Origin: Naegleria gruberi
Lineage: Eukaryota
Strand: one strand, 5' to 3'
NCBI GenBank assembly: GCA_000004985.1
Contig: GG738868.1
Length of the DNA: 64,000 nucleotides
Shown piece after piece: positions 1,965-63,351 of the stretch. Made by a program: the position numbers and the translations under genes. The first letter of the stretch is position 1. Each line of letters starts with the position of its first letter. The notes under the pieces were generated by a model, which saw nothing but the letters and a program-made list of their open reading frames with translations, had not been told where the DNA came from and ran no database searches.

Positions 1965-3052
1965 ATGATGCTAATTGATTCACAATGGAATCAAGTGTTG
2001 AATTCCGATGAATATTACAAGGATATAATTTCAACGTTCTTATCCCAAGATGTAGCACCACACTATTTCAAAGTACCAGGTTATGGAAGAAAGAAATTGG
2101 ATGATTATGAAGTTTTAATAATGAAGGGAATTTATCAATCATGGAAAGAATTATTTGTTAATTTGTAAGTTTTTCATGTGTTCAAAATCTGATTAAACAT
2201 CTTGATAGATTCTTTAGAAAATTCGAAACATTTAATGAACAATACCATCAGGCAGAGACTATTCTTGCATTTGAACAAAATATCAGATACGGAAGTGAAA
2301 AGGAAGATGACGAAGAAGAAGTGGAGGATAATCAAGACGAGGAGAGCAATGAAAAAACCAACTTGACCCTATTATTGAAAGAAGAGGCAACTCTTTGCAT
2401 TAAAGCAATTGAACAATCCAATGACACAACAGATTCCCTTCCTATTGGATCTTCTAAATTTGGAGGTAGACCTGATTTACCAAATGATTGTGTGTGGCCA
2501 ACTATGAAGAATGATTCAACAACACACATGATTTTTGTTGGTCAAATTAACTTGAAAGACTTGAAAAATTGTCATGCACCTAAGGGTGTATTACCAGTAA
2601 CTGGTTGGATGTTCTTCTTTATGGATTGGGGAGTTAATGGAGATTACTTTTCATTTTATTGGAATGGACCGGAATCTGAACTAAAAAGACATGACATGCC
2701 AGAGAAAGTGTACAACGATACCAAGTCTTTAAAATCAGTTTCCTTAAGTTTTGAAGAAATTGTTCAACCTTTAAAGAAGAGTTCTATTGAAGAGCATGAA
2801 TTACCTGAGGATGAAGAAGTTTTACTGCCTGTTGGTGGTTTTTCCTCAATACTGGGCTATCCTATGGCTTTCCAAGATGATGGAAATTACCTTCATACTA
2901 GTGGAAAGGTTTTCCTTTTCCAATTCAGTGGTTCAAACCAAGTAGACATTGATATGGGTGATGCCAACTTTTATTATTGTGCAAATATTGAAGATTTTTG
3001 TGGAGAAAAGACCCAGTCCAAGGTTGGTATTTATTCTGAATTCCAATCTTAA
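1965..3052 (+). CDS. DUF1963 (YwqG-like) domain protein; last two exons about 1965..2164 and 2209..3052, 5' end uncertain
   Basis: The downstream ORF (2209..3052, TAA) has the DUF1963 signatures SKFGGRPDLP...WP, FVGQINLKDL and LPVTGWMFFF, then ILGYP...FLFQF...DMGDANFYYC near the C-terminus. It is joined in frame to the upstream ORF by a 44-nt intron 2165..2208 (GTAAGT...GATAG). The upstream exon frame is open back to ~1700. The first in-frame ATG is at 1965; the true start or further 5' exons are not resolved. Confidence 0.55.
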
Positions 3053-14659: not shown

Positions 14660-15831
14660 AAGTAATAGTTTTATATTTTAATCATTTCTCAATAATTTTT
14701 TGCACTTTCTTGTGGTATGGTTTTGTATCTTCATTTGATTTCATTTTTATTTTTCAAAAATATTTTGTAATTCCTTTTTTGGAAGCCTCAGAAGAACCAT
14801 CATTTTTTTCACATCCCCTGTACTTTAATTTTCCAAACATTCTCAACCCAAAATCAATTCATCTCTCCACAAACTATTCTCCACCTTCACTTTCACCGAA
14901 ATATCAATTCTACCATTCATCCTTTATCTCGCTCAATTTTAATACAACCAATCAAGCATACTTCAATATTTTGTAAAAATAGCAAAAAAACGCCATACGC
15001 TCGAGTTATTACTTGTTCTTTCCCGCCAAAATCTCAGTTAGTATTTGTGGTAAGTGAGAGGACAACTCATTCTTGGTTTTGGTGTCACTCATCTCTATGA
15101 GATCTTGCAAACTGGAATGCAATCACTCTGTAGATGCAACGATATCTACAGAAATTTTACATTTTCCTCAACAAAATCTTGATAAACTTAGAGATAAATC
15201 TTTAGCCTATACTTTAATGCACTTTCTTCAAGTGTTTATTACAGTTTGTTGTCATGTAACAATATTTGGAATAGAGCACGAATCTTGATTGAGTCACTAA
15301 GTTTTCCTTCTTTACAAAAACCAAGCATATCAAAAAATCCCTGCCTAAATTGTTCCTAATTTTTGCTCTTCAACATTTGATTGGATCTTCAAAAAGAGAC
15401 TGGACGAATTGAATAGAGACACACTCATTACCGACTTTTGATGCTATCAATACACTTGTCTCAAAACTATTTCACATCTTCTATATACTTCATACAAAAC
15501 TTATTCGAAACATATTGTTAAAACTAATCAACATTATCCTTCTCGTTGTATGGAATCTGATACTCCCAATTGATGAACCTGTATTGTCAATTGACTGCTC
15601 CACTACATCGAAATAGTAAAGAGTTATTCTTTCAACATCCAAAATGTCACCCAAACCGCTAATTCAAATGACTTTCTTCTTCGCATCAGTGATTCGACAT
15701 GCTCGTGTCACCAATCCCCCATCATTTCACAACTAGTAATGTGTTCTCTCTGCTGAGCAATATTTAAAATGTCACTCGAGCCAACTGCCAATCAAATCAT
15801 CCACATAAAAAAATTCACAATTTATAACAAG

Positions 15832-17064
15832 ATGAATAAGACCCTCTTGTTCGCATTAGCCATGCTTTTCTGCATGGTTGCTTTCGTTTCTGCTGGTCCA
15901 TCTGCCAGTGCTGAAACTCTCGCTGCCACCACATTGTGCAACACTTTAGGAAATAAAACTAAAGGATGTGTCAAGTCATCTAGAAAACTCTTGAAAAGAG
16001 TTCCAAAGAATAAGAGAAGACAAGTTAAGAGATTGTTAAAGAAGGCCAGAAAGAATGCTCGTAAAGCAAAGAAACAACAAAGAAAGCTCAGAAAATTGAG
16101 AAGATGTGCCAAGAAGGCTAAATCTTTGAAGAAGAGAAGACAATGTAGAAGAGCATTGAAGAAGGTTGTTAAGAAGATCAAGAAGGCTAGACGTGCTGCT
16201 AGAAGAGCTGCCAAGAAGGCTGCTAAGAAGGCTAGAAAGGCCAGAAGATCTGCTAGACGTGCTGCTAGAAGAAAGGCCAGAAAAGCTTTGAAGAAGGCTA
16301 AGAAATCCTTGAAGAAGAGAAGAGCTTTGAAGAGAGCTGTCAGAAAGGGTAGAAAGTTCGGAAGAAAGGTCAGAAAGGTCAGAAAGTGTAAGAGATCTTC
16401 CTCAAGAAAGACCAGACGTGCTGCCAAGAGAAGAGTCAAGAAGGCAGTTAAGAAGGCTTTGAGAAAGTTGAAGAAACAATTGAAGAAGGCTAGAAAGGTT
16501 GCTAAGAAGGCTGCCAAGAAGGCTAGAAAGGCTAGAAGATTGAGAAGAAGACCAGCTAGAAAATGTAGACGTGTCTCAAAGAAGTCCATTAAGAGAGCTG
16601 TTAAGAGAGTTGTCAAGAGAGCTGTTAAGAAGGCTACTTTGAAGCTCAGAAAGCAATTGAAGAAGGCTAAGAAGCAAGTCAAGAAGGCTAGAAAGGTTGC
16701 CAAGAAGGCTGTTAAGAAGGCCAGAAAGGTTGTCAAGAAGGTCAAGAAGACTTGTAGAAGAAAGGTCAAGAAGGCTGCCAAGAAGATTGCTAAGAGAAGA
16801 TCTGCTGCCAAGAAGGTCGTCTTGAAGAAGGCTGCTGCTAAAAAGTTGAACAAGGTTGTTAACAAGTTGTTGAAATTGAAGAAGAAGCTCGGTAAGAGAT
16901 TCAACCCAAAGAAACACATCCCAAAGAAGGTTAGAAAGGTCTTGAGAAAATTGAGAATTTCTGCCAAGTGTGTCAAGAAGGTCAAGAAGGCTGCCAAGAA
17001 GGTTAAGGTCTCAAAGGCTTTGTTGAACAAGTTGAGAAAGGTTTCTTCCAAGTGTAGAAAGTAA
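15832..17064 (+). CDS. Secreted polycationic K/R/A-rich repeat protein (signal peptide + ~380 aa of lysine/arginine/alanine-rich low complexity with ~10 spaced Cys)
   Basis: ATG at 15832 begins MNKTLLFALAMLFCMVAFVSAGPSASA, a classical signal peptide. The rest is almost entirely KKA(R/K)K, RRA and KKV-type units with periodic Cys. Codon usage differs sharply from neighbouring genes: Lys is AAG, Arg is AGA, Ala is GCT, Leu is TTG and Val is GTC/GTT, and GC is higher. The antisense ORF 15822..17090 is a complement artifact. Confidence 0.7.
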   Translation: MNKTLLFALAMLFCMVAFVSAGPSASAETLAATTLCNTLGNKTKGCVKSSRKLLKRVPKNKRRQVKRLLKKARKNARKAKKQQRKLRKLRRCAKKAKSLKKRRQCRRALKKVVKKIKKARRAARRAAKKAAKKARKARRSARRAARRKARKALKKAKKSLKKRRALKRAVRKGRKFGRKVRKVRKCKRSSSRKTRRAAKRRVKKAVKKALRKLKKQLKKARKVAKKAAKKARKARRLRRRPARKCRRVSKKSIKRAVKRVVKRAVKKATLKLRKQLKKAKKQVKKARKVAKKAVKKARKVVKKVKKTCRRKVKKAAKKIAKRRSAAKKVVLKKAAAKKLNKVVNKLLKLKKKLGKRFNPKKHIPKKVRKVLRKLRISAKCVKKVKKAAKKVKVSKALLNKLRKVSSKCRK

Positions 17065-17295
17065 ATCAATTTCATTTGAATTTGAATCATTAAATTATTA
17101 AATACATATTTGGAAATTCAATTATTAATTTACCCATAAATTTGTTATTGTATTGCGTTTTGAAAAAAGCATGTAGATCAACAAAACTGATATGTATTGT
17201 AATATTATTTTAAATTGATTGGAAAAATTGTAAACTTTCAAAAAACGAAAAATTTGGTAATTCAAGATTAATTTTTTTTGAATTTGATAAAAAAA

Positions 17296-23435: not shown

Positions 23436-25109
23436 ATGGGACAAGATCAATCAACAGTTTCCATTCCGAAGAATAACATGTTTATTTGTGGAGAAAACAA
23501 AGAATGTAATTATATTTAAATACTTACATTTAGAATGAAAACAATTTGATAATTATTTAAATATATCATTGTATTATCAATATGATAAATAATGATCAAA
23601 TAATATTAAAGATCAATTCGGAATTGGATTTTCAAATTATACAACATTGAGAGAAATTAATAATTTCAAACAGGAAAATATTAAGAAGGTGTGCTGTGGA
23701 CCAAACTTTACAATTGTTCTAACCGATAGAGATGAAGTATATGGAACAGGATCGAATATTTATGGAGTTTTGGGTTTAGATTCATTTAGTCAATCGGATA
23801 GTCATCACTTTAATATTAATCGATTTGTAAAATTGCCAATTTCATTCAAGGTACAACATATTTGCTGCTGTAGATCGATGGTTGCTATTATTTCGAATGG
23901 ATATTTGAAAGCAAATAGGGAAACATTGTTGAATAGATCGATTATTTCGAATAGTTCCAGTCCTACCCAATTAAATGCCTATGGGCAAATGTTTTTCTGG
24001 AGTGGAGGTGATATTTCAATATCTGGTTGTCCAATCAATAAGAAATTCACTCCAATATATGATTGGAATTTTAATATAATGGGAAAAGTCAAGTTTTTCG
24101 AGTCGAGTCCATTTTCTTCCTTTTTTATAGTAGTAACAGGTAATTATTAATATTTCATTAGATTATAATTTTCGTTGGAATATATTAGAATTCAATAGGG
24201 TTTACTTTTCTGGACAAAATTGTAGTGGACAATTTGGAAATGGAGAGGAGAAACGAAATTTTAAATCCTTGTACCAATTGACTGATAATTTATTTCCAAC
24301 TTTTAAAGGCATAAAGCATGTTGCTTGTGGATCTAAACATTGTATTATAGTAACAGATGATAATGAACTCTACTCGAGTGGTAGTAATCAATATTTTCAA
24401 TTAGGACACTCCAACAATGCGAAACAAGACACCTTCCAGAAACCTGCAACAGAATTTCAAGGCAAAAAAATTGAACTAGTCAAGTGTGGAGAAAATTATA
24501 CAATGGTTTATTTGAGTAGTAAGTTTTGAGAGTTGGTTCGAATTTTTAATAATGAGGAAATTGTCAGATGGTGATTTATATGCTTGTGGAGCTAATCATT
24601 TTGGACAATTACTCAATAATCAAACTCAAAGGAAGGTTATATTTCACAAGATTCTAACTGATCGATCACTTGTTTCCCTCTCTTGTGGTAATAACTTTTC
24701 GCTCTATTTGACCAGGAATTGCCAAGTAATGAGGGCAGGTTCTAATGAATATGGTCAATTATTCTCTACGAAGAATGGATTTCAAATGCAAACTACAAAG
24801 GTGGATAAATCAATGCGTTTATTTGGATTGACTTGCTCCAACAATCTGACAATACTATATAAACAAAAGGATAATGATTGTGGAGAGATTTATTTGAGAA
24901 GATATTGCTCACAATTTGTCAAATCCTCTCCAAACAATAATAGACAACAGAACAAGGTATTATCACCCACAAAAAAGAGGAAGAAAAACTACCTTATGTA
25001 CAGATCTATCCACGACCATTTCTCGTTCATGTTTGATATTGCTTCGAGCTTGAAAATGGAGAATGCTACCCACCTTTTGTGCGATATTGAGGTGAAAATT
25101 TTGGAATGA
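23436..25109 (+). CDS. RCC1-repeat protein with N-terminal MGQ (N-myristoylation-type) start; 4 exons 23436..23505, 23612..24139, 24189..24518, 24568..25109
   Basis: RCC1 motifs occur in every exon: ICGENKEYQFGIG, CCGPNFTIVLTDRDEVYGTGSNIYGVLG, VYFSGQNCSGQFGNG, VACGSKHCIIVTDDNELYSSGSNQYFQLG and YACGANHFGQLL. The introns run 23506..23611 (106 nt, GTAATT..AAAG), 24140..24188 (49 nt, GTAATT..TTAG) and 24519..24567 (49 nt, GTAAGT..TCAG), and all phases check (1/1/1). Total 489 aa. Confidence 0.65.
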
Positions 25110-55321: not shown

Positions 55322-57129
55322 TTAGAGTTGACCATTTTCCCACTTGTCTTCAATCAAGCTCTTAACAATGGACCAACCACGGTGACCAATGATTGGATTT
55401 TCCATTTCACTGAATTCATCAGCCAACTTGTTGGCAGCAAGACCAGTTGGAATATTTTGATCTCTAGAAGTTTGCAAAATACGGGAAGCAATAACATAGA
55501 CAGCATTGTCCCAATCTCTACCGAAGTGTTTCAAAATTGCTGGGTCGTTCTTGACATAACCAAAGCATTCATTGGCACAATTGACAATACCCATACGGTT
55601 GTTCAAGTAATCTGGAACATAAATGATACCACGATTCTTAATCATGTGATCATGTTCAACAGGATCCAAAAGTTGATTGTTGGCAGCACCACAGACAATC
55701 TTACAGTTGAGCATTGGAATGGTAGTAGAGTTGATGATACCACCCAAAGCAGCTGGAGCAAAAACGTCACATGGTTCAGCAAAGATGCTCAAATCGTTTG
55801 GAGCAACAACTCTGAATTCAACATTTGGTGCATGCTTGAATTGTTCCTTTCTCATGGCAATCAAGTTCTTGTCGATATCAGTAGCAATAACCTTACCAAC
55901 ATTTCTCTTGACGAGTTCTTCAACAATGAAGCTAGCAACATTACCAGCACCTTGGACGACAACCTTCTTTCCACTCAAATCTCCCATACCGAGGAAATTA
56001 ACAGCAGCTTCCATACCACAGACAGTACCAATGGCAGTGGAGTGAGATGGGTTACCAGAACCACCAATACCTTGTGACAAACAACTGACGAAACGAGAAG
56101 ACTTTGATGAAGAAGAAATTATGATAAGTGTGTGAAAATTGATGATGATGAAATTGTAACGGTAACAAAAATATTTCACATTTGCATTTTGATTGGAAGT
56201 TGAAGGTGTTAATAATAAAGAGAGATAATATACATACATTGTGCATTCTATCACAATCTGGTGTAGTGAGACCAACGTCTTCAGCACCATAGTAGGCACC
56301 CTTCAATGAAGAAAGGAACTTTCCGTATTCACCAAAGATGACATCACGAGTAACATCATTAGCATAAGTAGCACCATCAGTCTTTTGGATGATACCCTTA
56401 CCACCACCTGTTGATTATTGATCCATCAAGTTTTAATAATTATTTTCCAATATTTGTTGTTCATATGATGATAGAATCGATTGTGTGTGAAAATATCGTG
56501 TGTGATTTTTAAAATTATATGAATTGTAAATATCATCAATAATAAATACTAACCCCACCATAAACCAGCAAGAGCATTCTTTCTATTAATTAAATTCAAC
56601 AAGTCCGATATCATCACAAGGAATTAAATTTCACAATCATCATCAATATTATGAAAATTAATTTCATATAAAATCACACAACATACCTAGTCATACCCAA
56701 GCTCAATCTCAAACCATCTCTAACGTAATCTTCCATAGAATTGTACTTCCACAATCTGACACCACCGTGTGCCAAACCTCTGTTTGATTTATGGAGGAAA
56801 GCAGAGAACAAGAGGTTAGACTTTGGACCAACTTGGAAGAAACAAGCTTCATGCTTCAAGAAATCTCTCTTATCCTTTGAAATAAATTCACCCAATTGAG
56901 CAAAAAGTGGATGACTAGTCACAACTTGTTGCTTTTCAGCATCATAAACAACATAACCTCTTTGAATGCCAGCCTTTTGCATTTCTTCTTGGAATTTTTC
57001 AACAGACAAGGATGCAACTCCATTTTGTTGTTGATTCAATTTTTGGGAGAATTGTCTGACGATCATTCCGGCTTGGAAAGTTGTTTGCTTATTACCAGCA
57101 ACAACACGACGGCTCACAGTGTTGAACAT
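55322..57129 (-). CDS. Leu/Phe/Val-type amino-acid dehydrogenase (ELFV dehydrogenase family, leucine-dehydrogenase-like) with N-terminal presequence; 4 exons 56687..57129, 56554..56582, 56238..56407, 55322..56101
   Basis: The spliced product aligns along its whole length with bacterial LeuDH: GLAHGGVRLWKY, RLSLGMT|RKNALAGLWWG|GGGKGII, YYGAEDVGLT, GGSGNPSHSTA, VVQGAGNVA, ATDID, DVFAPAALGGIIN, GAANNQL and YVPDYLNNRMGIVNCANE. The introns run 56583..56686 (GTATGT..AATAG), 56408..56553 (GTTAGT..AACAG) and 56102..56237 (GTATGT..CAAAG), and phases 2/0/0 check. The N-terminal ~55 aa is basic and hydroxylated, like a presequence. The exon-4 acceptor choice is the least certain element. Confidence 0.65.
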
Positions 57130-57632: not shown

Positions 57633-59411
57633 ATGTTGGGCGACAATGAAGAAGAATTGCAAAACTATCAATATTATCTTCATGAAAACTCCGAGAGCTT
57701 CAACCAGACAAAAAAAATGAGAAACGAGACTTTTCTGGAGGCTCATGATGATGAAAATAATTACTCTTCATCAGGGATGAGCAAACATCAGCAGCATCAG
57801 CAGCAACAACAGGAAGTCTCCTCTTCATCATTGAATTCTCGGGAACAATATGGAGATGAAGATAACTTGTATGTCCGAGGAAGTTGGAGGAGTAGAATCA
57901 AGAGTTATTTGGAAAATAGATTTGGAGAATTAACATTCAAAAATTTATCGTTGAGAGGATTGAGATTTTTGGCTGTTTTCTTATTTTCTCAAGTGATATC
58001 TTGTTTATTAACATCGACAGGAATATTTAGTACTTTTTTAACAAACAAATTCAATATTAATTTACCAACATTACAGAATGCGATTAGTTACACGACATTG
58101 TTGGCATTTTACTTTCCTTTATTGCTGGTTCACAAATGGTGTTTTCCAGTTGTGAAGAAAGTAAAGAGAATTAATTTTGCAGCTATTGGAGCTAGGAAAT
58201 CGAGGAAAGCTAGGAAAACTTCAGAGAATAGTCGATTAATATCTGAATCTAGTGAATCATCATTGAGACAGCAAGAAGTATCTTCGCCAACTGAGAGTGG
58301 TATTGCTGCTTCGGAGTCAATGAGTAGTGTGGGAGAAACTGCACTCACTACAGCAGATGTCAATACCACAACTATTACTTCACCAAAACCACTCGTGACA
58401 CATACCTCATTCCAAAAAATTGAGGACGAGGAAGAACAAGAGGAAGAAGAGGGAATCAAGACATGTTTCCAATCAATTTTCAAACGTTTATATATACCTG
58501 AAAGATGGAATATGAAGCCATGGAAATACATCTTCTTTGCTTTTGCTGACGTGGAGGCCAACTTTTTGGTTGTTAAGGCCTATCAGTACACAACCATTAC
58601 TTCTGTCATGCTCTTGGATTGTTTCACAATTCCAAGTGTCATGTTACTGAGCTTTTTATTTTTGAATAGAACTTATAGGTGGACTCACATTGTAGGTGTT
58701 TTGATTTGTTTGACAGGTTTAGGGCTTTTGGTATTGAGCGACTATTTGAGAAGTATTAGTGAGGAACATCATCAAACTTCGGAAAATCCATGGTATTACC
58801 TATTGATGGGCGATGCCTTCTGTATTGTTGGCTCATTTTGCTATGCTATCAGTAATGTAGCTCAAGAATATGCCTTAAAATCAGAGGATCACTTTTCACA
58901 ACTCATGGCTGACCCATCATCCACCGATATCGAACCAACATCACCAACATCCACAACTGCTCCTCCAGAAGTTTCCAAACCAAGACTCAGTGACAATGAT
59001 TGTGCCATTGAATATTTGGGTATGGTAGGATTATTTGGAACTATCATTGCCATCATTCAAACACTCATTTTCGAAAGAGAAGATATCATGAACACAAAAT
59101 GGACACCTCAATCAATGATGTACATGGCTGGATTTGCTGCTTCCATGTTCTTTATCTATACCCTTGTTCCTCACTTGATTAGATGGAGTAGTGCAACCTT
59201 TATGAATCTTTCCTTCCTGACGAGTGATATCTTTGCAGTCATTGCTAGTGTATTCCTCTTTGGTCAATCAGTTTATCCACTCTATTATTTTGCCTATGCC
59301 ATTATTGCCATTGGTTTAGTTTTCTACAATCTCTTACAGGAAGAAGAAAGAAAATCAAAGAGTGTTTGGGCCAAGGGAAAACTGTTACTTGTAAAATGTT
59401 TCAGAAAGTAA
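57633..59411 (+). CDS. SLC35F1/F2-like (EamA/DUF914) solute carrier
   Basis: KAYQYTTITSVMLLDCFTIPSVMLLSFLFLNRTYRWTHIVGVLICLTGLGLLVLSD matches the SLC35F signature. About 10 TM segments are present. A long S/E-rich loop sits after TM2. The first ATG in the ORF is at 57633. Confidence 0.65.
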   Translation: MLGDNEEELQNYQYYLHENSESFNQTKKMRNETFLEAHDDENNYSSSGMSKHQQHQQQQQEVSSSSLNSREQYGDEDNLYVRGSWRSRIKSYLENRFGELTFKNLSLRGLRFLAVFLFSQVISCLLTSTGIFSTFLTNKFNINLPTLQNAISYTTLLAFYFPLLLVHKWCFPVVKKVKRINFAAIGARKSRKARKTSENSRLISESSESSLRQQEVSSPTESGIAASESMSSVGETALTTADVNTTTITSPKPLVTHTSFQKIEDEEEQEEEEGIKTCFQSIFKRLYIPERWNMKPWKYIFFAFADVEANFLVVKAYQYTTITSVMLLDCFTIPSVMLLSFLFLNRTYRWTHIVGVLICLTGLGLLVLSDYLRSISEEHHQTSENPWYYLLMGDAFCIVGSFCYAISNVAQEYALKSEDHFSQLMADPSSTDIEPTSPTSTTAPPEVSKPRLSDNDCAIEYLGMVGLFGTIIAIIQTLIFEREDIMNTKWTPQSMMYMAGFAASMFFIYTLVPHLIRWSSATFMNLSFLTSDIFAVIASVFLFGQSVYPLYYFAYAIIAIGLVFYNLLQEEERKSKSVWAKGKLLLVKCFRK

Positions 59412-59526: not shown

Positions 59527-62500
59527 ATGGTTCAACAACAGCAGAACGTTCCATCACCAATTGGCACGATGGATCGTTCGACTGCCACTGTCGAATTACA
59601 TCAATTACATCATCACCAGCAACACCAAGAAGAGCATCAACAACAACAACAATATTACACTCTCAACAAGAAAAAGAAGAGAAATTTGCTCCTTCTCATT
59701 ATTCTCTCCTTGTTTGGTGCTAGTCTCTTGTTGGTTTTGGCTTTCCCATTGATGAGAAAATTGTTCCATCATCACTTTGGTCACCAACAAGAACATCATA
59801 ACGGAATGATGGATTCGAATCAACAACATCATTACTTCCATAGAAAACATGGCTCTCCAGATGGCCTTTTTCATAGACAACATTCACCACAAGGGGCTCA
59901 TCCGAATCCATTCAAAGAATTTTCTCAACATCAACATCATCACGATCGTCACTATAATTCCATTCATCTCAAAAATAGACAAATTCACATTCCTTCTACA
60001 GATGATCATTTTAAGAGATTTGGAAATTCTCATCATTCTCAATCACAACAATTTTCCTCCTCAATTATTAAACTCTTCCGTTCAGCACTTTCAATCTTTT
60101 CTTCAGAAAAGAATGAAAATTTTGGCGCCAAAACTACAAGAAGCTTGAATGAAAAGGGTGAGATGATGCAAACCTTCTTATTACATTTTAAAAAAAATTA
60201 CGATAAAGTTGGCGCGCAAAGACAAGCAACAACAAGAAGCAATGCAGAAGGAAAGGATGAAGTTTTTGAGGCTTGGTTAGAGAAGGGCTTGAAACAATTC
60301 AATGTTCGATTGGGACATTATATTCCTCACAGAACTTTTATGATTAGTGGAAGTGAGAATAATGTTTGGAGAGCAAGAGAGTGGATTAATTCTGAATTGA
60401 GTGAATTGTCTTGGTTTGAATCATTGTTTGAAGAGAGTGAGGCTTGCTGGATTGGACCAGTTGAGAGTAAGGATAAATCAGTTTCTGATGATATTTTGGA
60501 AGTTCACTTGGATAAGACTGTTGCAGTTGAACGTATCATGAGAGGTGATGCACCATATGATGATGCTTTCAGATACATGACAAGAAAATTGTTGGCTAAC
60601 AATGATAAGGGTAGAGATGTACATTTTATTGTTACTGCCAATGTTGCCAAACATGAAAGTAAGGAAGAATTGGAAAAGAGTGAACTTTTGAATGCAAATT
60701 CTGAAATTATGCAAAGGCTCAAGAAACATGACATTGTCAATGTTCAAGCTGTTTCAAATTCCAAGATTGCCATTGGTGTTAATGGTCATAAGGATGCAAT
60801 GAATGTTGCTCAAGATCTCAGAGAACACGGTTTGATTCATTGGGTGGAAGTTAAAACTCCAACCACCACCCACGGTAAATATTCGAATGGTCTCGTCCAA
60901 AGTTATAAGAAACCAACAGAGAAACCAATTTGGAATATGGGCATTACAGGTCAAGGACAAGTTATTGGTGTAGGTGATACTGGCGTAGATTATTATCATT
61001 GTTTCTTCTATGACGAAAATAATGAACCACCATTCCAAACTACTTTGGCTGGCGCCTCAGCAACAACCACCTCTGCTCACAGAAAGTTCAAATCATTCTG
61101 GGCCTATATGGACAAGATTGACTCTGAACAAGGACACGGTACTCACGTTACAGGTATTGCTGCTGGTAAGGCTCACACCTCAAGTAATCCAACCACTATG
61201 CAAGAACACAATGCAGTAGCTCAAGATGCTAAACTTGCTTTCATGGATGCTGGTTGTGATACTGACTCTTGTAAATGTCCTGCTGATGTTTTGTGTGAAT
61301 GCGATATGAAGGATGGCAAGATTTGTCCAAAAAAGTTCGGTGTTGTTTACTTGCCACTCGATCTTTATGAATCATATTTCCCATACTTTTATCAAAATGG
61401 AGCCAGAGTTGTTAGTAGCTCATGGGGAACTGGCTTTTTCAAAGATTTTGGATTTGGTTATTCCACAAATTCTAGAGAAATTGACATGTTTGCTTGGGAA
61501 AAGAAAGATTTCTTACCAGTCTTTGCTGCTGGTAATAGTGGTGGTGTTTTTGGTTATGCTTCTCTAACTAGTGAAGCTGAATCAAAGAATGGTGTTTCTG
61601 TTGGAGCTTCTTTGAGCACCTATCAAAGTTTCGAACAAACTGTTAACCTGACTTCTACTCAATTAATTATTGACAGATTGAGAATTGAACTCTATCAAAG
61701 ATTTTGCCAAAAATCAAGTGATTTATATGATGCTGACAAGTGTACTGCTGCCCAAAAGTTCACCACTGTCGATGACTGCTGTAATAATGGAGGAAAATGT
61801 ACTACAATTAGTAGCGCTTGTTGTGGTGTTCAAACTTTCTCTCCATTCACAACCATTGGTTTCAGATGTTGCCCAGATTGTATCAGACTTGAAATGAAGG
61901 AACACCCAGAATATTACAGTCAAGAAAATCTTGCAGTTTTTACTGCCAGAGGTCCAACTCGTAAGTATCTCCAAAATCTAATAATTTCTAACAATTACAA
62001 ATAGTTGATAACCGTATCAAGCCAGATATCGTCACTGTTGGAGAAAAGATTCTCTCAGCTCGCTCAGCTGGTACAACCTCAGATAGAAAGTGTGGAGCTT
62101 CAGAATTTAAAAAGATTGAAGATCAAATGATTTATCACGAAGGTACTTCAATGGCTGCACCTCTTGCTGTACGTGTTTATAATTTTCTTTTACTAATTGT
62201 TCTTGTTATTATTCATTTCAATTTTGAAAATATAGGCCTCAGCTATTGCCTTGATTAGACAATACTATCAAGAAGGATATTTAAGTGGAGCTAAGGATCC
62301 TGCTAAGGGATTCAATCCTTCTGCTGCTTTGGTTAAGGCCACCTTGATTCACTCTGCCAAACCATTGACTGGTTATGTTCATCTGCTTTCAAAGCATATG
62401 GTATGTTTTATATTTGTCATTTAGAACTAATTGAATTTTGTTAGTATTGGCCACTTCAATATAAGGAAGGACACACCTTTGCACTTCAAAGTACATACAT

Positions 62501-63351
62501 GCAAGGATTCGGACACATTGATCTCAGTAATGTCATGGATAAGAGTATGAATCTCTATATTCCAAACAAGGAAGATGCCCAACTTTCAACAGGTCAAGCT
62601 CACCAATATTGTCTCAATGTCAAGTCTCAAGCAACTAATCCACTCAAGGTAACAATTGTTTGGACCGATCCACCTAGTTCACCTGCAGCAAAAATTCACC
62701 TTGTCAATGACTTGGACTTGGTTGTCGTTACTCCAAGTGGTGATAAATTGTTTGGTAATGGAGGTAAATCTTCTGTCAAGCAAACAAGAGATGAACCTGA
62801 TCAATTGAATAATGTAGAACAAGTTGAAATGGAAACAACTGATCCAGTAGGAAAGTACAATATTAGTAAGTTTTTCAAAATCTTAATTTAGTATTAACAA
62901 TCAAATAGTCGTGAGAGGTAATGCTGTAACTAAAGGACCACAACCATATGCTATCGTTATTACAGGTGATTTTGAACTTACAAGTGGTTGCGCTGCTTAT
63001 TCTTTCATTCCATATGCTTATTTGGCAGAAAGAGTTCAAACATACAGTAACTTGTCTATTGCTTTTGGTATTCTATCAGTTATTTGTATTCCAGCTCTTG
63101 CATTCTTGTCCATTTATTTATACATACAATATAGAAAGATTACCACCTCTAGTCAAGGTTATAGATCTGCAGACATTGGTCAAAACACAAGAACCTATGT
63201 CGATATTGGAGACGATGACAATTTTGAATTGAAAAACTTGAGAAAGAATTATCAAATTGATGAAAGTGACGACGATGATAATACTGAAATCAATAGAAGA
63301 GGAGGTACAGCAAGTGAAAAGGCTCAATTAGGTATGACAGATCGTGAATAA
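59527..63351 (+). CDS. Membrane-anchored subtilisin/kexin-like serine protease (S8) with I9 propeptide and P-domain-like beta-sandwich; 5 exons 59527..61960, 62005..62168, 62236..62400, 62445..62865, 62909..63351
   Basis: The order is N-terminal signal-anchor, then a His/Gln-rich linker, then an I9-like propeptide (HFIVTANVAKHES...), then the catalytic Asp (GVGDTGVDYYH), His (HGTHVTGIAAG), KPDIVTVG and Ser (EGTSMAAP). A P-domain-like block (VTIVWTDPP...LVNDLDLVVVTPSG...QPYAIVITG) and a C-terminal TM follow. The introns run 61961..62004 (GTAAGT..AATAG), 62169..62235 (GTACGT..TATAG), 62401..62444 (GTATGT..GTTAG) and 62866..62908 (GTAAGT..AATAG), and phases 1/0/0/1 all check. Total 1208 aa. Confidence 0.75.

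What the first reader, a model, noticed from the sequence alone, without database searches (positions are those of the whole stretch)
55322..57129. Bacterial-type leucine/phenylalanine/valine dehydrogenase gene with three spliceosomal introns and a presequence: candidate ancient horizontal transfer, now domesticated
The spliced protein aligns end to end with the bacterial LeuDH/PheDH/ValDH subfamily: GGxR.W.Y, GGGK, AEDVG, GSSGNPS, QGxGNVA, the Rossmann segment and GAANNQL. Short ~360-aa ELFV enzymes of this subfamily are overwhelmingly bacterial. Here the gene carries GTATGT/GTTAGT introns, including a 29-nt micro-exon, and a basic N-terminal extension consistent with organellar targeting. 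Its introns (104-146 nt) are clearly longer than the 41-67-nt introns of neighbouring genes.
Basis: partly seen in the sequence, partly recalled or inferred. Interest (0 to 1): 0.6.

Follow-up and report, generated by a model that had tools for sequence, protein, structure and literature searches.

The report
Naegleria mitochondrial leucine-dehydrogenase-like gene
This is a real, intron-containing Naegleria gruberi gene for a probably mitochondrial amino-acid dehydrogenase related to bacterial leucine dehydrogenase, but its little-studied enzyme subfamily also occurs in many other eukaryotes, including marine animals, so it is an old eukaryotic resident and not a Naegleria-specific import from bacteria.

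Summary
The described sequence features are present. A minus-strand gene at 55322-57129 has four exons, including a 29-nt micro-exon, and three GT..AG introns of 104, 146 and 136 nt. It encodes a 473-aa ELFV dehydrogenase identical to an existing NCBI "predicted protein" of Naegleria gruberi. All catalytic residues are intact, and the best solved relatives are bacterial leucine dehydrogenases.

The protein is not the short ~360-aa type. It belongs to an uncharacterised long-form subfamily with a ~435-aa core, an extra N-terminal module, a C-terminal helix and a different substrate pocket. About 38 basic, acid-free, disordered N-terminal residues with a conserved R-x-F|S motif indicate mitochondrial import.

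The subfamily is not overwhelmingly bacterial. Members occur in other Heterolobosea, Colponema, Diphylleia, Platysulcus, early-diverging fungi and many invertebrates (amphioxus, echinoderms, molluscs, a cnidarian), as well as Myxococcota and a few other bacterial phyla. My maximum-likelihood analysis places the Naegleria gene with the non-fungal eukaryotes plus Myxococcota. A heterolobosean-specific bacterial sister is disfavoured but not excluded.

Verdict: an ordinary, vertically inherited nuclear gene of an understudied enzyme subfamily. Any bacterial transfer is far older than the Naegleria lineage, and its direction is unresolved. The substrate is unknown.

The parts
55322..57129 (-). Whole coding span (ATG to TAA) of the long-form ELFV (LeuDH-like) dehydrogenase gene, 473 aa
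   Evidence: Spliced model built. It is identical to the NCBI N. gruberi predicted protein P0001.
56687..57129 (-). Exon 1 (443 nt; aa 1-147 plus 2 nt of codon 148)
   Evidence: The donor is ACTAG|GTATGT.
57016..57129 (-). Predicted mitochondrial presequence (aa 1-38), with an R25-Q-F|S28 motif of R-3 MPP type at 57046-57057
   Evidence: The segment is absent from bacterial homologues (alignment A1). The first 30 aa contain 5 K/R and 0 D/E. AF2 pLDDT is below 50-66 for residues 1-36. R-x-F-S is conserved in the same alignment column in N. lovaniensis, Willaertia and Colponema.
56851..57015 (-). Long-form-specific N-terminal module (aa 39-93: helix, beta-hairpin, helix), absent from characterised LeuDH/PheDH
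   Evidence: It is conserved in bacterial and eukaryotic long-form members. AF2 pLDDT is about 95. PDB LeuDH alignments start at residue 94.
56583..56686 (-). Intron 1 (104 nt, GTATGT..TAG, phase 2); specific to N. gruberi
   Evidence: It is absent at this site in N. lovaniensis and Willaertia.
56554..56582 (-). Exon 2, a 29-nt micro-exon encoding (R148)KNALAGLWW(G158), including K149 (= LeuDH K68)
   Evidence: It is needed to keep the reading frame and the family-invariant motif.
56408..56553 (-). Intron 2 (146 nt, GTTAGT..CAG, phase 1 in the G158 codon); position shared with N. lovaniensis
56238..56407 (-). Exon 3 (170 nt), containing the catalytic K161 (= K80) and A199-E-D201 (= A113-E-D115)
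56102..56237 (-). Intron 3 (136 nt, GTATGT..AAG, phase 0); position shared with N. lovaniensis
55322..56101 (-). Exon 4 (780 nt including TAA): GGSGNPS, the Rossmann domain, GAANNQL, the pocket helix and the C-terminal helix
55871..55954 (-). Dinucleotide-binding segment Q264-GAGNVA...ATD289ID. The acidic residue at the end of beta-2 suggests a preference for NAD+.
   Evidence: Sequence. It aligns to the LeuDH Rossmann segment. The cofactor preference is an inference from general Rossmann-fold knowledge.
55568..55600 (-). Pocket helix N382-RMGIVNCANE392. R383, M384, I386 and C389 replace LeuDH A288, G289, V291 and V294.
   Evidence: The residues are invariant or nearly so in long-form members.
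55325..55405 (-). Long-form-specific C-terminal extension (aa 447-473) with the PIxGHRG motif and a terminal helix

Best explanation
The locus is a native nuclear gene of Naegleria gruberi. It encodes a matrix-targeted, probably NAD+-dependent L-amino-acid dehydrogenase of a distinct long-form branch of the Glu/Leu/Phe/Val (ELFV) dehydrogenase superfamily.

Mechanism (inferred by homology with LeuDH/PheDH chemistry):
- After import and removal of a ~27-38-residue presequence, the enzyme binds the alpha-carboxylate of an L-amino acid through K149 and N356.
- It uses K161 and D201 for acid/base catalysis and transfers hydride to NAD+ bound in the Rossmann domain.
- It releases the 2-oxo acid and ammonium, and the reaction is reversible.
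- The side-chain pocket (H121, A199, R383, M384, I386, C389) is neither LeuDH-like nor GDH-like. The substrate is therefore probably a neutral or hydrophobic amino acid, with branched-chain amino acids the default guess, but this is not established.
- Physiologically it would let a bacterivorous amoeba feed amino-acid carbon into mitochondrial oxo-acid oxidation without a transaminase/2-oxoglutarate cycle.

Evolution:
- The gene has been inherited vertically within Heterolobosea, with orthologues in N. lovaniensis and Willaertia and rapid intron turnover.
- It belongs to a subfamily shared by many non-fungal eukaryotes and Myxococcota.
- It is an old eukaryotic gene and not a lineage-specific bacterial import.
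- Whether early eukaryotes obtained it from a myxobacterium-like donor, or the reverse, is unresolved.
For: Shown:
- Gene model and identity to the public N. gruberi protein.
- Both Pfam ELFV domains score above their cut-offs.
- The best PDB sequence hit is LeuDH at 2e-70, followed by TrpDH, PheDH and GDH. The AF2 model has pLDDT 90 and pTM 0.87, and Foldseek's top hits are LeuDH at TM 0.83-0.85.
- K68, K80, D115, N261/N262, G41/G42 and E297 are all conserved, while the pocket residues differ.
- Presequence: a 38-aa extension relative to bacteria, K/R-rich, with no D/E and disordered, carrying a conserved R-x-F|S motif. Most other eukaryotic members have similar 21-83-aa basic extensions.
- Orthologues at 81% (N. 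lovaniensis) and 70% (Willaertia) identity. The N. lovaniensis gene keeps the SLC35F neighbour, and two of the three intron positions are shared with it.
- Native-like composition: GC3 is 0.348 against 0.306 +/- 0.064 for neighbouring ORFs.
- Eukaryotic breadth: Colponema, Diphylleia and Platysulcus; spiders, Priapulus, bivalves, echinoderms, amphioxus, Owenia, Clytia and Tubulanus. The amphioxus gene has 10 introns and animal neighbours.
- Environmental relatives P0006, P0022 and P0135 sit on eukaryotic contigs.
- Phylogeny: in the NJ tree Heterolobosea has bootstrap 100, Heterolobosea plus eukaryotic P0021/22 has 98, and Metazoa has 100. The ML tree and constrained alternatives are: the eukaryote(+Myxococcota) placement takes RELL 0.92.
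Against: - No transcript, localisation or enzymatic data were available. The substrate, the cofactor and mitochondrial import are inferences.
- The pocket carries His, Arg, Met and Cys where LeuDH has Leu, Ala, Gly and Val, so a non-BCAA substrate is quite possible.
- Backbone NJ support is below 50.
- Four-cluster likelihood mapping preferred Heterolobosea plus an AT-rich bacterial clade (0.62-0.63 of quartets), also after Dayhoff-6 recoding. That grouping follows amino-acid composition.
- Leave-one-clade-out profile scoring had no discriminating power.
- The ML analysis used home-written code, a BLOSUM62-derived model, 34 taxa and fixed within-group topologies. The alternatives are rejected only at z = 1.4-1.9.
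- The eukaryotic distribution is patchy, which multiple transfers could also produce. The fungal members group with Gemmatimonadota and the Riflebacteria-type clade, not with the other eukaryotes.
Confidence: 0.6

Rival explanations
1. One reading: a bacterial LeuDH-type gene was transferred specifically into the heterolobosean (Naegleria/Willaertia) lineage. It then acquired introns and a presequence, independently of the copies in other eukaryotes.
For: - Bacterial long-form proteins at 50-54% identity are as similar to the query as any non-heterolobosean eukaryotic protein.
- Quartet likelihood mapping favours Heterolobosea plus the Riflebacteria-type clade in 0.45-0.63 of quartets.
- The eukaryotic distribution is patchy.
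- The fungal copies appear to have a separate bacterial affinity, so transfers do occur in this family.
- No intron position is shared between Naegleria and Willaertia.
Against: - The supported sister group (bootstrap 98) is eukaryotic: P0021 comes from EukProt, and P0022 lies on contigs with a split 5-FTHF ligase gene and a RING protein.
- Constrained ML trees with Heterolobosea next to the Riflebacteria-type clade, next to Myxococcota alone, or in the Riflebacteria-type/Gemmatimonadota/fungi clade are 28.5, 11.4 and 11.0 lnL units worse, with RELL of 0.024, 0.002 and 0.049.
- The quartet signal matches compositional similarity: FYMINK is 0.29 in Heterolobosea and 0.28 in the Riflebacteria-type clade, against 0.17 in Myxococcota.
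- F182 is shared by 20 of 22 eukaryotes, while 32 of 35 bacteria have Y.
- Two paralogues already existed before the Naegleria/Willaertia split.
Confidence: 0.15
2. The patchy eukaryotic distribution reflects several independent bacteria-to-eukaryote or eukaryote-to-eukaryote transfers among phagotrophs. Alternatively, a eukaryote-to-Myxococcota transfer explains why Myxococcota nest among eukaryotes. In either case there was no single ancestral eukaryotic gene with many losses.
For: - Most holders are phagotrophic protists or marine invertebrates. The gene was not seen in vertebrates, insects, yeasts or plants in the hit lists.
- In the ML tree Myxococcota nest as sister to Colponema plus Metazoa.
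- The fungi group elsewhere.
- Forcing all eukaryotes to be monophyletic costs about 56 lnL units.
- Myxococcota are predators with many eukaryote-like genes (my own knowledge).
Against: - Monophyly of the non-fungal eukaryotes costs only 3.3 lnL units (z = 0.29, RELL 0.37).
- Within Metazoa the tree roughly follows the species tree from cnidarian to deuterostomes and protostomes, showing long vertical inheritance.
- One intron position and phase is shared exactly between amphioxus and N. lovaniensis, and two more lie within 5 nt.
Confidence: 0.25
3. The enzyme does not act on branched-chain amino acids. The conserved His/Ala/Gln at position 40 together with R383, M384 and C389 would define a different substrate, such as a polar, sulphur-containing or charged amino acid, or a non-proteinogenic amine. 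The LeuDH-like label would then be misleading.
For: - Only A113 of the four LeuDH pocket residues is kept. R288 and M289 are nearly invariant across the long-form family.
- No curated NCBIfam equivalog is reached; the best, TrpDH ScyB, scores 214 bits against a cut-off of 600.
- There is no bkd-type operon context in Myxococcota.
Against: - The pocket is still mostly hydrophobic (A, I, M, C).
- The closest structures and sequences are LeuDH.
- A sister branch of the wider family is fused to a class-I aaRS-like domain (Ile/Leu/Met/Val type) and sits next to ValRS, linking relatives to aliphatic amino acids.
- The GDH residues that bind the gamma-carboxylate are absent.
Confidence: 0.35
4. The feature is an artefact: bacterial contamination, a pseudogene or a mis-spliced model.
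For: None found. The only weak point is the lack of transcript data for the 29-nt micro-exon.
Against: - Canonical GT..AG introns restore one long frame and the invariant motifs.
- The model is identical to the public one.
- Orthologues in two other genera conserve the micro-exon sequence.
- The eukaryotic neighbours are syntenic.
- All catalytic residues are intact and the fold prediction is confident.
Confidence: 0.02

Closest known systems
Bacterial leucine dehydrogenase (EC 1.4.1.9), e.g. Geobacillus stearothermophilus 6ACF and Lysinibacillus sphaericus 1LEH
   Same: It has the same two-domain ELFV fold (Foldseek TM 0.80-0.85) and 36-45% identity over residues 94-446. The catalytic and carboxylate-binding residues K68, K80, D115 and N261/262 are identical, as is the Rossmann motif with an acidic residue at the end of beta-2.
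   Different: - The core is about 70 residues longer, with an added N-terminal helix-hairpin-helix module (aa 39-93) and a C-terminal helix (aa 447-473).
- The pocket residues are H, A, I and C plus R383/M384, in place of L40, A113, V291 and V294 plus A288/G289.
- It has a eukaryotic presequence and introns.
- It has no bkd operon context.
Phenylalanine dehydrogenase (1C1D/1BW9) and tryptophan dehydrogenase ScyB (5B37; NCBIfam NF035922)
   Same: They belong to the same LeuDH/PheDH/TrpDH branch of the ELFV superfamily. ScyB is the best-scoring NCBIfam model (214.5 bits), and Foldseek TM is 0.81-0.87.
   Different: The ScyB score is far below the equivalog cut-off of 600. Identity is only 27-32%. 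Neither has the long-form extensions, and neither is known from eukaryotic mitochondria.
Mitochondrial glutamate dehydrogenase (GLUD1 type) and other GDHs
   Same: It is in the same superfamily and uses the same chemistry. It has the same predicted compartment in eukaryotes and a similar overall length.
   Different: Similarity is remote: PDB E-values are 1e-16 or weaker, and NCBIfam GDH models score at most 56 bits against cut-offs above 500. The lysine and serine that bind the glutamate gamma-carboxylate are replaced by H121 and C389.
Mitochondrial catabolic enzymes of proposed myxococcal ancestry (acyl-CoA dehydrogenases including ACADSB, ETF and others; Schlueter et al. 2011, PMC3131387)
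   Same: It shows the same phylogenetic pattern: a eukaryotic, mitochondrion-targeted catabolic enzyme whose nearest bacterial relatives are Myxococcota and not Alphaproteobacteria.
   Different: This ELFV family is not among the 15 genes listed in that paper. Its eukaryotic distribution is patchy and appears to exclude vertebrates. In my ML tree Myxococcota nest within the eukaryotes, so the direction of transfer is open.

Membership tests
ELFV (Glu/Leu/Phe/Val) amino-acid dehydrogenase superfamily | Both Pfam domains (PF02812 dimerisation domain, PF00208 NAD(P)-binding domain) score above their gathering thresholds | tested here: met
   PF00208 scores 57.1 bits (cut-off 23.4) and PF02812 scores 39.9 bits (cut-off 25.3).
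ELFV (Glu/Leu/Phe/Val) amino-acid dehydrogenase superfamily | Catalytic Lys and Asp, plus the alpha-carboxylate-binding Lys and Asn (LeuDH K80, D115, K68, N262) | tested here: met
   K161, D201, K149 and N356 are aligned and conserved.
ELFV (Glu/Leu/Phe/Val) amino-acid dehydrogenase superfamily | Two-domain fold with a Rossmann dinucleotide-binding domain | tested here: met
   The AF2 model has pLDDT 90. Foldseek's top hits are LeuDH, PheDH, TrpDH and then GDH.
ELFV (Glu/Leu/Phe/Val) amino-acid dehydrogenase superfamily | NAD(P)+-dependent oxidative deamination activity | not testable with these tools
   This requires an enzyme assay.
Leucine dehydrogenase sensu stricto (EC 1.4.1.9, Bacillus type) | Side-chain pocket L40, A113, V291, V294 | tested here: not met
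   The query has H121, A199, I386 and C389, and also R383/M384 in place of A288/G289.
Leucine dehydrogenase sensu stricto (EC 1.4.1.9, Bacillus type) | A ~360-370-aa architecture without an extra N-terminal module or C-terminal helix | tested here: not met
   LeuDH chains cover only query residues 94-446. Residues 39-93 and 447-473 are structured, conserved additions.
Leucine dehydrogenase sensu stricto (EC 1.4.1.9, Bacillus type) | Reaches a curated equivalog model for a named ELFV enzyme | tested here: not met
   The best NCBIfam hit is TrpDH ScyB at 214.5 bits against a cut-off of 600. No LeuDH, ValDH or PheDH equivalog is reached.
Leucine dehydrogenase sensu stricto (EC 1.4.1.9, Bacillus type) | Preference for Leu, Ile or Val as substrate | not testable with these tools
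   There are no biochemical data and no literature on any long-form member.
Glutamate dehydrogenase | Lys and Ser that bind the gamma-carboxylate (C. symbiosum K89, S380), and a match to curated GDH models | tested here: not met
   The equivalent positions are H121 and C389. GDH NCBIfam models score at most 56 bits against cut-offs of at least 536.
Long-form LeuDH-like subfamily (defined operationally here) | N-terminal module plus the motifs LAGLWWGGGKG, GGSGNPS, NRMGIVNCANE and the C-terminal PIxGHRG | tested here: met
   All are present, and they are invariant or nearly so across 23 bacterial and eukaryotic members (alignment A1).
Nuclear-encoded mitochondrial matrix protein with a cleavable presequence | An N-terminal extension relative to prokaryotic homologues that is basic, hydroxyl-rich and free of acidic residues | tested here: met
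   The extension is about 38 aa. The first 30 aa contain 5 K/R, 0 D/E and 5 S/T. It is disordered in the AF2 model.
Nuclear-encoded mitochondrial matrix protein with a cleavable presequence | A processing-peptidase motif (R-2 or R-3) | tested here: met
   R25-Q-F|S28 fits the R-3 pattern. RCFS, RNFS and RSFS occupy the same column in N. lovaniensis, Willaertia and Colponema. The motif definition comes from my own knowledge of MPP sites.
Nuclear-encoded mitochondrial matrix protein with a cleavable presequence | A dedicated predictor score (TargetP, MitoFates) or experimental localisation | not testable with these tools
   No such tool or proteome look-up was available.
Lineage-specific bacterium-to-eukaryote horizontal transfer | Absence from other eukaryotes | tested here: not met
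   Members occur in Colponema, Diphylleia, Platysulcus, many Metazoa, Blastocladiomycota, Zoopagomycota and environmental eukaryotes.
Lineage-specific bacterium-to-eukaryote horizontal transfer | The recipient clade is nested in, or sister to, a specific bacterial clade with support | tested here: not met
   The sister group is eukaryotic (bootstrap 98). ML trees that place Heterolobosea with bacteria are 11-28 lnL units worse, with RELL at most 0.05. Quartet mapping disagrees but is confounded by composition, so the result is not decisive.
Lineage-specific bacterium-to-eukaryote horizontal transfer | Compositional or codon-usage anomaly relative to the host genome | tested here: inconclusive
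   GC3 of 0.348 lies within the neighbours' range. The RSCU correlation of 0.70 is just below the range for other real ORFs (0.72-0.96), which is compatible with expression-linked bias.

The most novel reading that the evidence does not exclude
The long-form LeuDH-like enzyme may be an ancestral mitochondrial amino-acid dehydrogenase of eukaryotes, distinct from GDH. It would date to LECA, or at least predate the split of Discoba, Alveolata, Stramenopila, CRuMs and Metazoa. It would share ancestry with Myxococcota enzymes, carry a substrate pocket unlike any characterised ELFV enzyme, and have been overlooked because every standard model organism (vertebrates, insects, nematodes, yeasts, plants) lost it. 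The exactly shared intron position between amphioxus and N. lovaniensis would then be a relic of an ancient intron.
Probability: 0.35. Interest if true: 0.6.

Novelty: new member of a known kind. Interest (0 to 1): 0.38.

Why it matters
For the scan, this finding should be downgraded from a domesticated bacterial transfer to a normal nuclear gene.

Three points have wider interest:
- LeuDH/PheDH/ValDH-type enzymes are usually described as bacterial. Here a sister subfamily with mitochondrial presequences turns out to be widespread in protists and marine invertebrates, and none of its members has been characterised biochemically or structurally.
- If it oxidises branched-chain or other neutral amino acids directly to oxo acids and ammonium, then these organisms have a transaminase-independent entry into mitochondrial amino-acid catabolism that vertebrates lack.
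- Its nearest bacterial relatives are Myxococcota. That would add a case to the debated myxobacterial contribution to mitochondrial catabolism (PMC3131387), with the unusual twist that the direction of transfer is open.

Tried and rejected
- **Contamination or pseudogene:** rejected on introns, synteny, orthologues and intact catalytic residues.
- **Transcript or contig look-up of the exact protein:** it is not in the index. No RNA-seq tool was available.
- **Bacterial gene neighbourhood as a clue to function:**
  - Plesiocystis, a related metagenome bin and seven GTDB loci show no bkd or other catabolic operon.
  - The neighbours are ABC transporters, peptidases and DUF7790.
  - In one MAG a short-form ELFV gene lies next to the long-form gene. 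None of this was informative.
- **Rfam scan of the introns and flanks:** only sub-threshold snoRNA-like hits, and these lie outside the introns.
- **Literature:** nine full-text searches found no description of eukaryotic LeuDH-like enzymes or of this Naegleria gene. The two papers that matched on 'leucine dehydrogenase' say nothing about eukaryotic enzymes; one only cites a bacterial enzyme.
- **Leave-one-clade-out HMM classification (eukaryotic versus bacterial profile):** no discriminating power, because every clade scores about equally on both profiles.
- **Four-cluster likelihood mapping:** it favoured Heterolobosea plus the AT-rich Riflebacteria-type clade. That is exactly the compositional grouping, and the full-tree ML analysis contradicts it, so I treat it as unreliable but report it.
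- **Monophyly of all eukaryotes including fungi:** 56 lnL units worse than the ML tree, so I do not claim it.
- **afdb50 fold search for more named eukaryotic members:** the library was unavailable.
- **Longer introns as a sign of foreign origin:** rejected. N. lovaniensis has four introns of 95-286 nt, Willaertia has one of 55 nt, and environmental relatives have none. Intron content in this gene simply turns over quickly.


Full report
**1. The observation**

The gene lies on the minus strand between 57129 (ATG) and 55322 (last base of TAA).
- Joining four exons gives a 1422-nt frame encoding 473 aa. The exons are 57129-56687, 56582-56554, 56407-56238 and 56101-55322.
- The joins cross three AT-rich introns of 104, 146 and 136 nt with donors GTATGT, GTTAGT and GTATGT.
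- The product is identical over its full length to a public 'predicted protein [Naegleria gruberi]'. This identifies the window's organism and shows that the model is already annotated.
- The 29-nt micro-exon encodes (R)KNALAGLWW(G), a family-invariant stretch that contains the carboxylate-binding lysine. In N. lovaniensis and Willaertia the same residues are contiguous with the upstream exon. The micro-exon therefore results from an intron present only in N. gruberi.
- Intron positions 2 and 3 are shared with N. lovaniensis in both site and phase.
- N. lovaniensis has four introns (95-286 nt). Willaertia has one 55-nt intron at another site. Environmental relatives have none.
- Other genes in the window do have shorter introns of 43-49 nt with GTAAGT donors.

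**2. What the protein is**

- Both ELFV Pfam domains pass their thresholds.
- The best solved relatives by sequence are bacterial leucine dehydrogenases (6acf at 2e-70), then TrpDH and PheDH, and far behind them GDH.
- An AlphaFold model built from a 23-sequence alignment is confident (pLDDT 90, pTM 0.87). It matches LeuDH structures at TM 0.80-0.85.
- LeuDH residues K68, K80, D115, N261/262, G41/42 and E297 are all conserved, so the catalytic machinery is intact.
- The Rossmann motif GAGNVA is followed by an aspartate at the end of beta-2 (ATD289), which suggests NAD+ use. This is an inference.

It is not a canonical LeuDH.
- LeuDH chains align only to residues 94-446.
- Residues 39-93 form a confidently predicted helix-hairpin-helix module, and residues 447-473 form an extra helix.
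- Both additions, together with the motifs LAGLWWGGGKG, NRMGIVNCANE and PIxGHRG, are conserved in a large family of ~435-aa bacterial proteins and their eukaryotic counterparts.
- The LeuDH side-chain pocket (L40, A113, V291, V294, with A288/G289) is replaced by H121, A199, I386 and C389 with R383/M384.
- No NCBIfam equivalog is reached.
- I found no solved structure or publication for any long-form member.

The chemistry can therefore be stated with confidence. The substrate cannot. My working guess is a neutral aliphatic amino acid.

**3. Targeting**

- Relative to the bacterial start, the Naegleria protein has about 38 extra N-terminal residues. The first 30 contain five K/R, no D/E and five S/T, and the segment is disordered in the model.
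- An R-x-F|S motif of R-3 processing type sits in the same alignment column in N. gruberi, N. lovaniensis, Willaertia and Colponema.
- Most other eukaryotic members carry comparable extensions of 21-83 residues.
- Mitochondrial matrix localisation is thus well supported by sequence, but it has not been tested.

**4. Who else has it**

Beyond the orthologues in N. lovaniensis (81%) and Willaertia (70%), the named eukaryotic members are:
- Protists: Colponema vietnamica, Diphylleia rotans and Platysulcus tardus.
- Arthropods, priapulids and molluscs: spiders, Priapulus and bivalves.
- Other invertebrates: four echinoderms, two Branchiostoma species, Owenia, Clytia and Tubulanus, mostly on chromosome-scale scaffolds.
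- Fungi: Allomyces, Blastocladiella and Syncephalis.

Further points on distribution:
- The amphioxus gene has 10 introns and lies between a USP gene and a death-domain kinase gene.
- Metagenomic relatives P0006, P0022 and P0135 lie on contigs with Ras, gelsolin, a split P-type ATPase, a split 5-FTHF ligase, a RING finger protein or ribosomal protein L32e, so they are eukaryotic.
- The bacterial long-form members are mostly Myxococcota (Nannocystaceae, Polyangiaceae). There are scattered representatives in Gemmatimonadota, Ignavibacteriota, Riflebacteria and an 'Eubacteriales' MAG. Acidobacteriota and Sericytochromatia appear in a related branch fused to an aaRS-like domain.

The premise that this enzyme type is overwhelmingly bacterial is therefore wrong for the subfamily to which this gene belongs.

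**5. Phylogeny**

*Neighbour joining.* I used 110 taxa, 417 columns, Scoredist distances and 200 bootstraps.
- Supported groups: Heterolobosea with environmental relatives 100; that clade plus eukaryotic P0021/P0022 98; Metazoa 100; Myxococcota 88; the Riflebacteria-type clade 95.
- The Metazoa topology is roughly species-tree-like.
- The backbone is unresolved.

*Profile test.* A leave-one-clade-out profile test had no power.

*Quartet mapping.* Four-cluster likelihood mapping preferred Heterolobosea plus the Riflebacteria-type clade, also after Dayhoff-6 recoding. That is exactly the split predicted by amino-acid composition.

*Maximum likelihood.* I wrote a small engine using a reversible BLOSUM62-derived rate matrix with four gamma categories and alpha of about 0.9. 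It searched backbone rearrangements by NNI for 34 taxa, with the well-supported groups held fixed.
- The ML tree is (outgroups, ((((P0135, Platysulcus), Diphylleia), (((Colponema, Metazoa), Myxococcota), Heterolobosea)), ((Gemmatimonadota, Fungi), Riflebacteria-type clade))).

| Constraint | Cost in lnL | z | RELL |
|---|---|---|---|
| Non-fungal eukaryotes monophyletic, Myxococcota as sister | 3.3 | 0.29 | 0.37 |
| Heterolobosea sister to the Riflebacteria-type clade | 28.5 | 1.78 | 0.024 |
| Heterolobosea sister to Myxococcota alone | 11.4 | 1.86 | 0.002 |
| Heterolobosea in the Riflebacteria-type/Gemmatimonadota/fungi clade | 11.0 | 1.41 | 0.049 |
| All eukaryotes including fungi monophyletic | about 56 | not computed | not computed |

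*Independent hints.*
- F182 is shared by 20 of 22 eukaryotes, while 32 of 35 bacteria have Y.
- One intron position and phase (NRM|GIV) is shared exactly between amphioxus and N. lovaniensis. Two more heterolobosean introns lie within 3-5 nt of amphioxus introns.
- Naive chance probabilities for these coincidences are 0.046 and 0.010, uncorrected for protosplice-site bias.

These analyses use simple models and home-made code, so they are indicative and not decisive.

**6. Interpretation**

The best-supported reading is as follows.
- The locus is a native nuclear gene for a mitochondrial NAD+-dependent amino-acid dehydrogenase of an uncharacterised long-form LeuDH-like subfamily.
- It has been inherited vertically in Heterolobosea.
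- It belongs to a clade of non-fungal eukaryotic genes whose closest bacterial relatives are Myxococcota.
- This pattern resembles the mitochondrial catabolic enzymes of proposed myxococcal ancestry (PMC3131387), which do not include this family.
- A very old inter-domain transfer is likely in one direction or the other. A transfer specific to the Naegleria lineage is not supported.
- The fungal copies may be a separate acquisition.

**7. Novelty and score**

- The gene model is already public, and the enzyme superfamily is classic.
- What is little known is the breadth of this subfamily in eukaryotes, its distinctive pocket and its myxobacterial affinity.
- I rate it a new (uncharacterised) member of a known kind, of modest interest (0.38).
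- The more novel reading is an ancestral, overlooked mitochondrial amino-acid dehydrogenase. I give that a probability of 0.35.

Noticed in passing
Not in the window: P0179 (XP_002679755.1, NAEGRDRAFT_65087), with orthologues P0369 (Willaertia) and P0370 (N. lovaniensis): N. gruberi has a second, fast-evolving long-form ELFV paralogue (477 aa, 33% identical) that is conserved in Willaertia and N. lovaniensis. It has lost D115 (now G), N261/N262 (now Q and S) and G42 (now N), so it is probably catalytically dead or repurposed.
   Followed up: partly
L090 111-3770 (P0149); also P0146, P0150, P0155, P0156, P0157, P0164, P0167 and L015 (Thermoanaerobaculia MAG): A bacterial branch of the family has the ELFV dehydrogenase fused at its C-terminus to a partial class-I aminoacyl-tRNA-synthetase (Ile/Leu/Met/Val type) domain, giving proteins of 700-1200 aa. 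In L090 the fusion gene lies directly upstream of a full valyl-tRNA synthetase gene. I know of no description of such a fusion.
   Followed up: partly
L093 16792-17245 (Branchiostoma floridae) versus L001 7674-7839 (N. lovaniensis): A phase-0 intron between the codons for NRM and GIV lies at exactly the same aligned position in amphioxus and N. lovaniensis. It is absent from N. gruberi and Willaertia. Two other heterolobosean introns lie 3 and 5 nt from amphioxus introns. These could be ancient introns or parallel insertions at glycine-rich protosplice sites.
   Followed up: partly
L094 3001-4386 (Clytia hemisphaerica): The cnidarian orthologue is intronless and lies antisense within the span of the DNA polymerase delta catalytic-subunit gene. 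It may be a retrogene or a nested gene.
   Followed up: no
P0153 (Allomyces), P0165 (Blastocladiella), P0136 (Syncephalis), L012 (Gemmatimonadota MAG): The fungal long-form members group with a Gemmatimonadota sequence and the Riflebacteria-type clade, not with the other eukaryotes. They mostly lack a typical presequence, which suggests a separate acquisition. P0165 is annotated as fused to a NuA4 subunit domain, which is probably a gene-model merge.
   Followed up: partly
L007 6001-7212 and 7303-8322 (Nannocystaceae MAG): A long-form and a short-form (339-aa) ELFV dehydrogenase gene lie next to each other in convergent orientation. The two forms therefore coexist and presumably differ in function.
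   Followed up: no
L091 2852-5995 and 8001-9452 (Logan contig SRR17331971_97713): A presequence-bearing long-form ELFV gene (P0141) lies about 2 kb from a class-I aaRS gene. The contig is made up of many small unannotated ORFs and carries a faint EsV-1-7 cysteine-repeat hit, so it may come from a stramenopile or a giant virus.
   Followed up: no
window 2165-2208, 24519-24567, 61961-62004, 62866-62908: These are candidate very short introns (43-49 nt, GTAAGT...[CT]AG) joining long open frames in other genes of the window. The dehydrogenase introns are 2-3 times longer and use GTATGT or GTTAGT donors.
   Followed up: partly
window 15757-17117: Overlapping long ORFs on both strands (435 and 431 aa) have unusually high GC (0.40-0.41) and GC3 (0.49) for this window. 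The plus-strand frame has host-like codon usage (r = 0.76) and the minus-strand frame does not (r = 0.19). This is probably one highly expressed gene with a spurious antisense ORF.
   Followed up: no
window 57634-59411 (+): An SLC35F/EamA-like transporter gene lies head-to-head with the dehydrogenase gene, about 500 bp between their start codons. N. lovaniensis conserves this arrangement and Willaertia does not.
   Followed up: partly
Metazoan members in alignment set2: A minority of the sampled animal copies have substitutions at K68, K80 or D115 (for example K80 to S or I, and D115 to G or T). This suggests that inactive paralogues have arisen repeatedly in animals as well.
   Followed up: no
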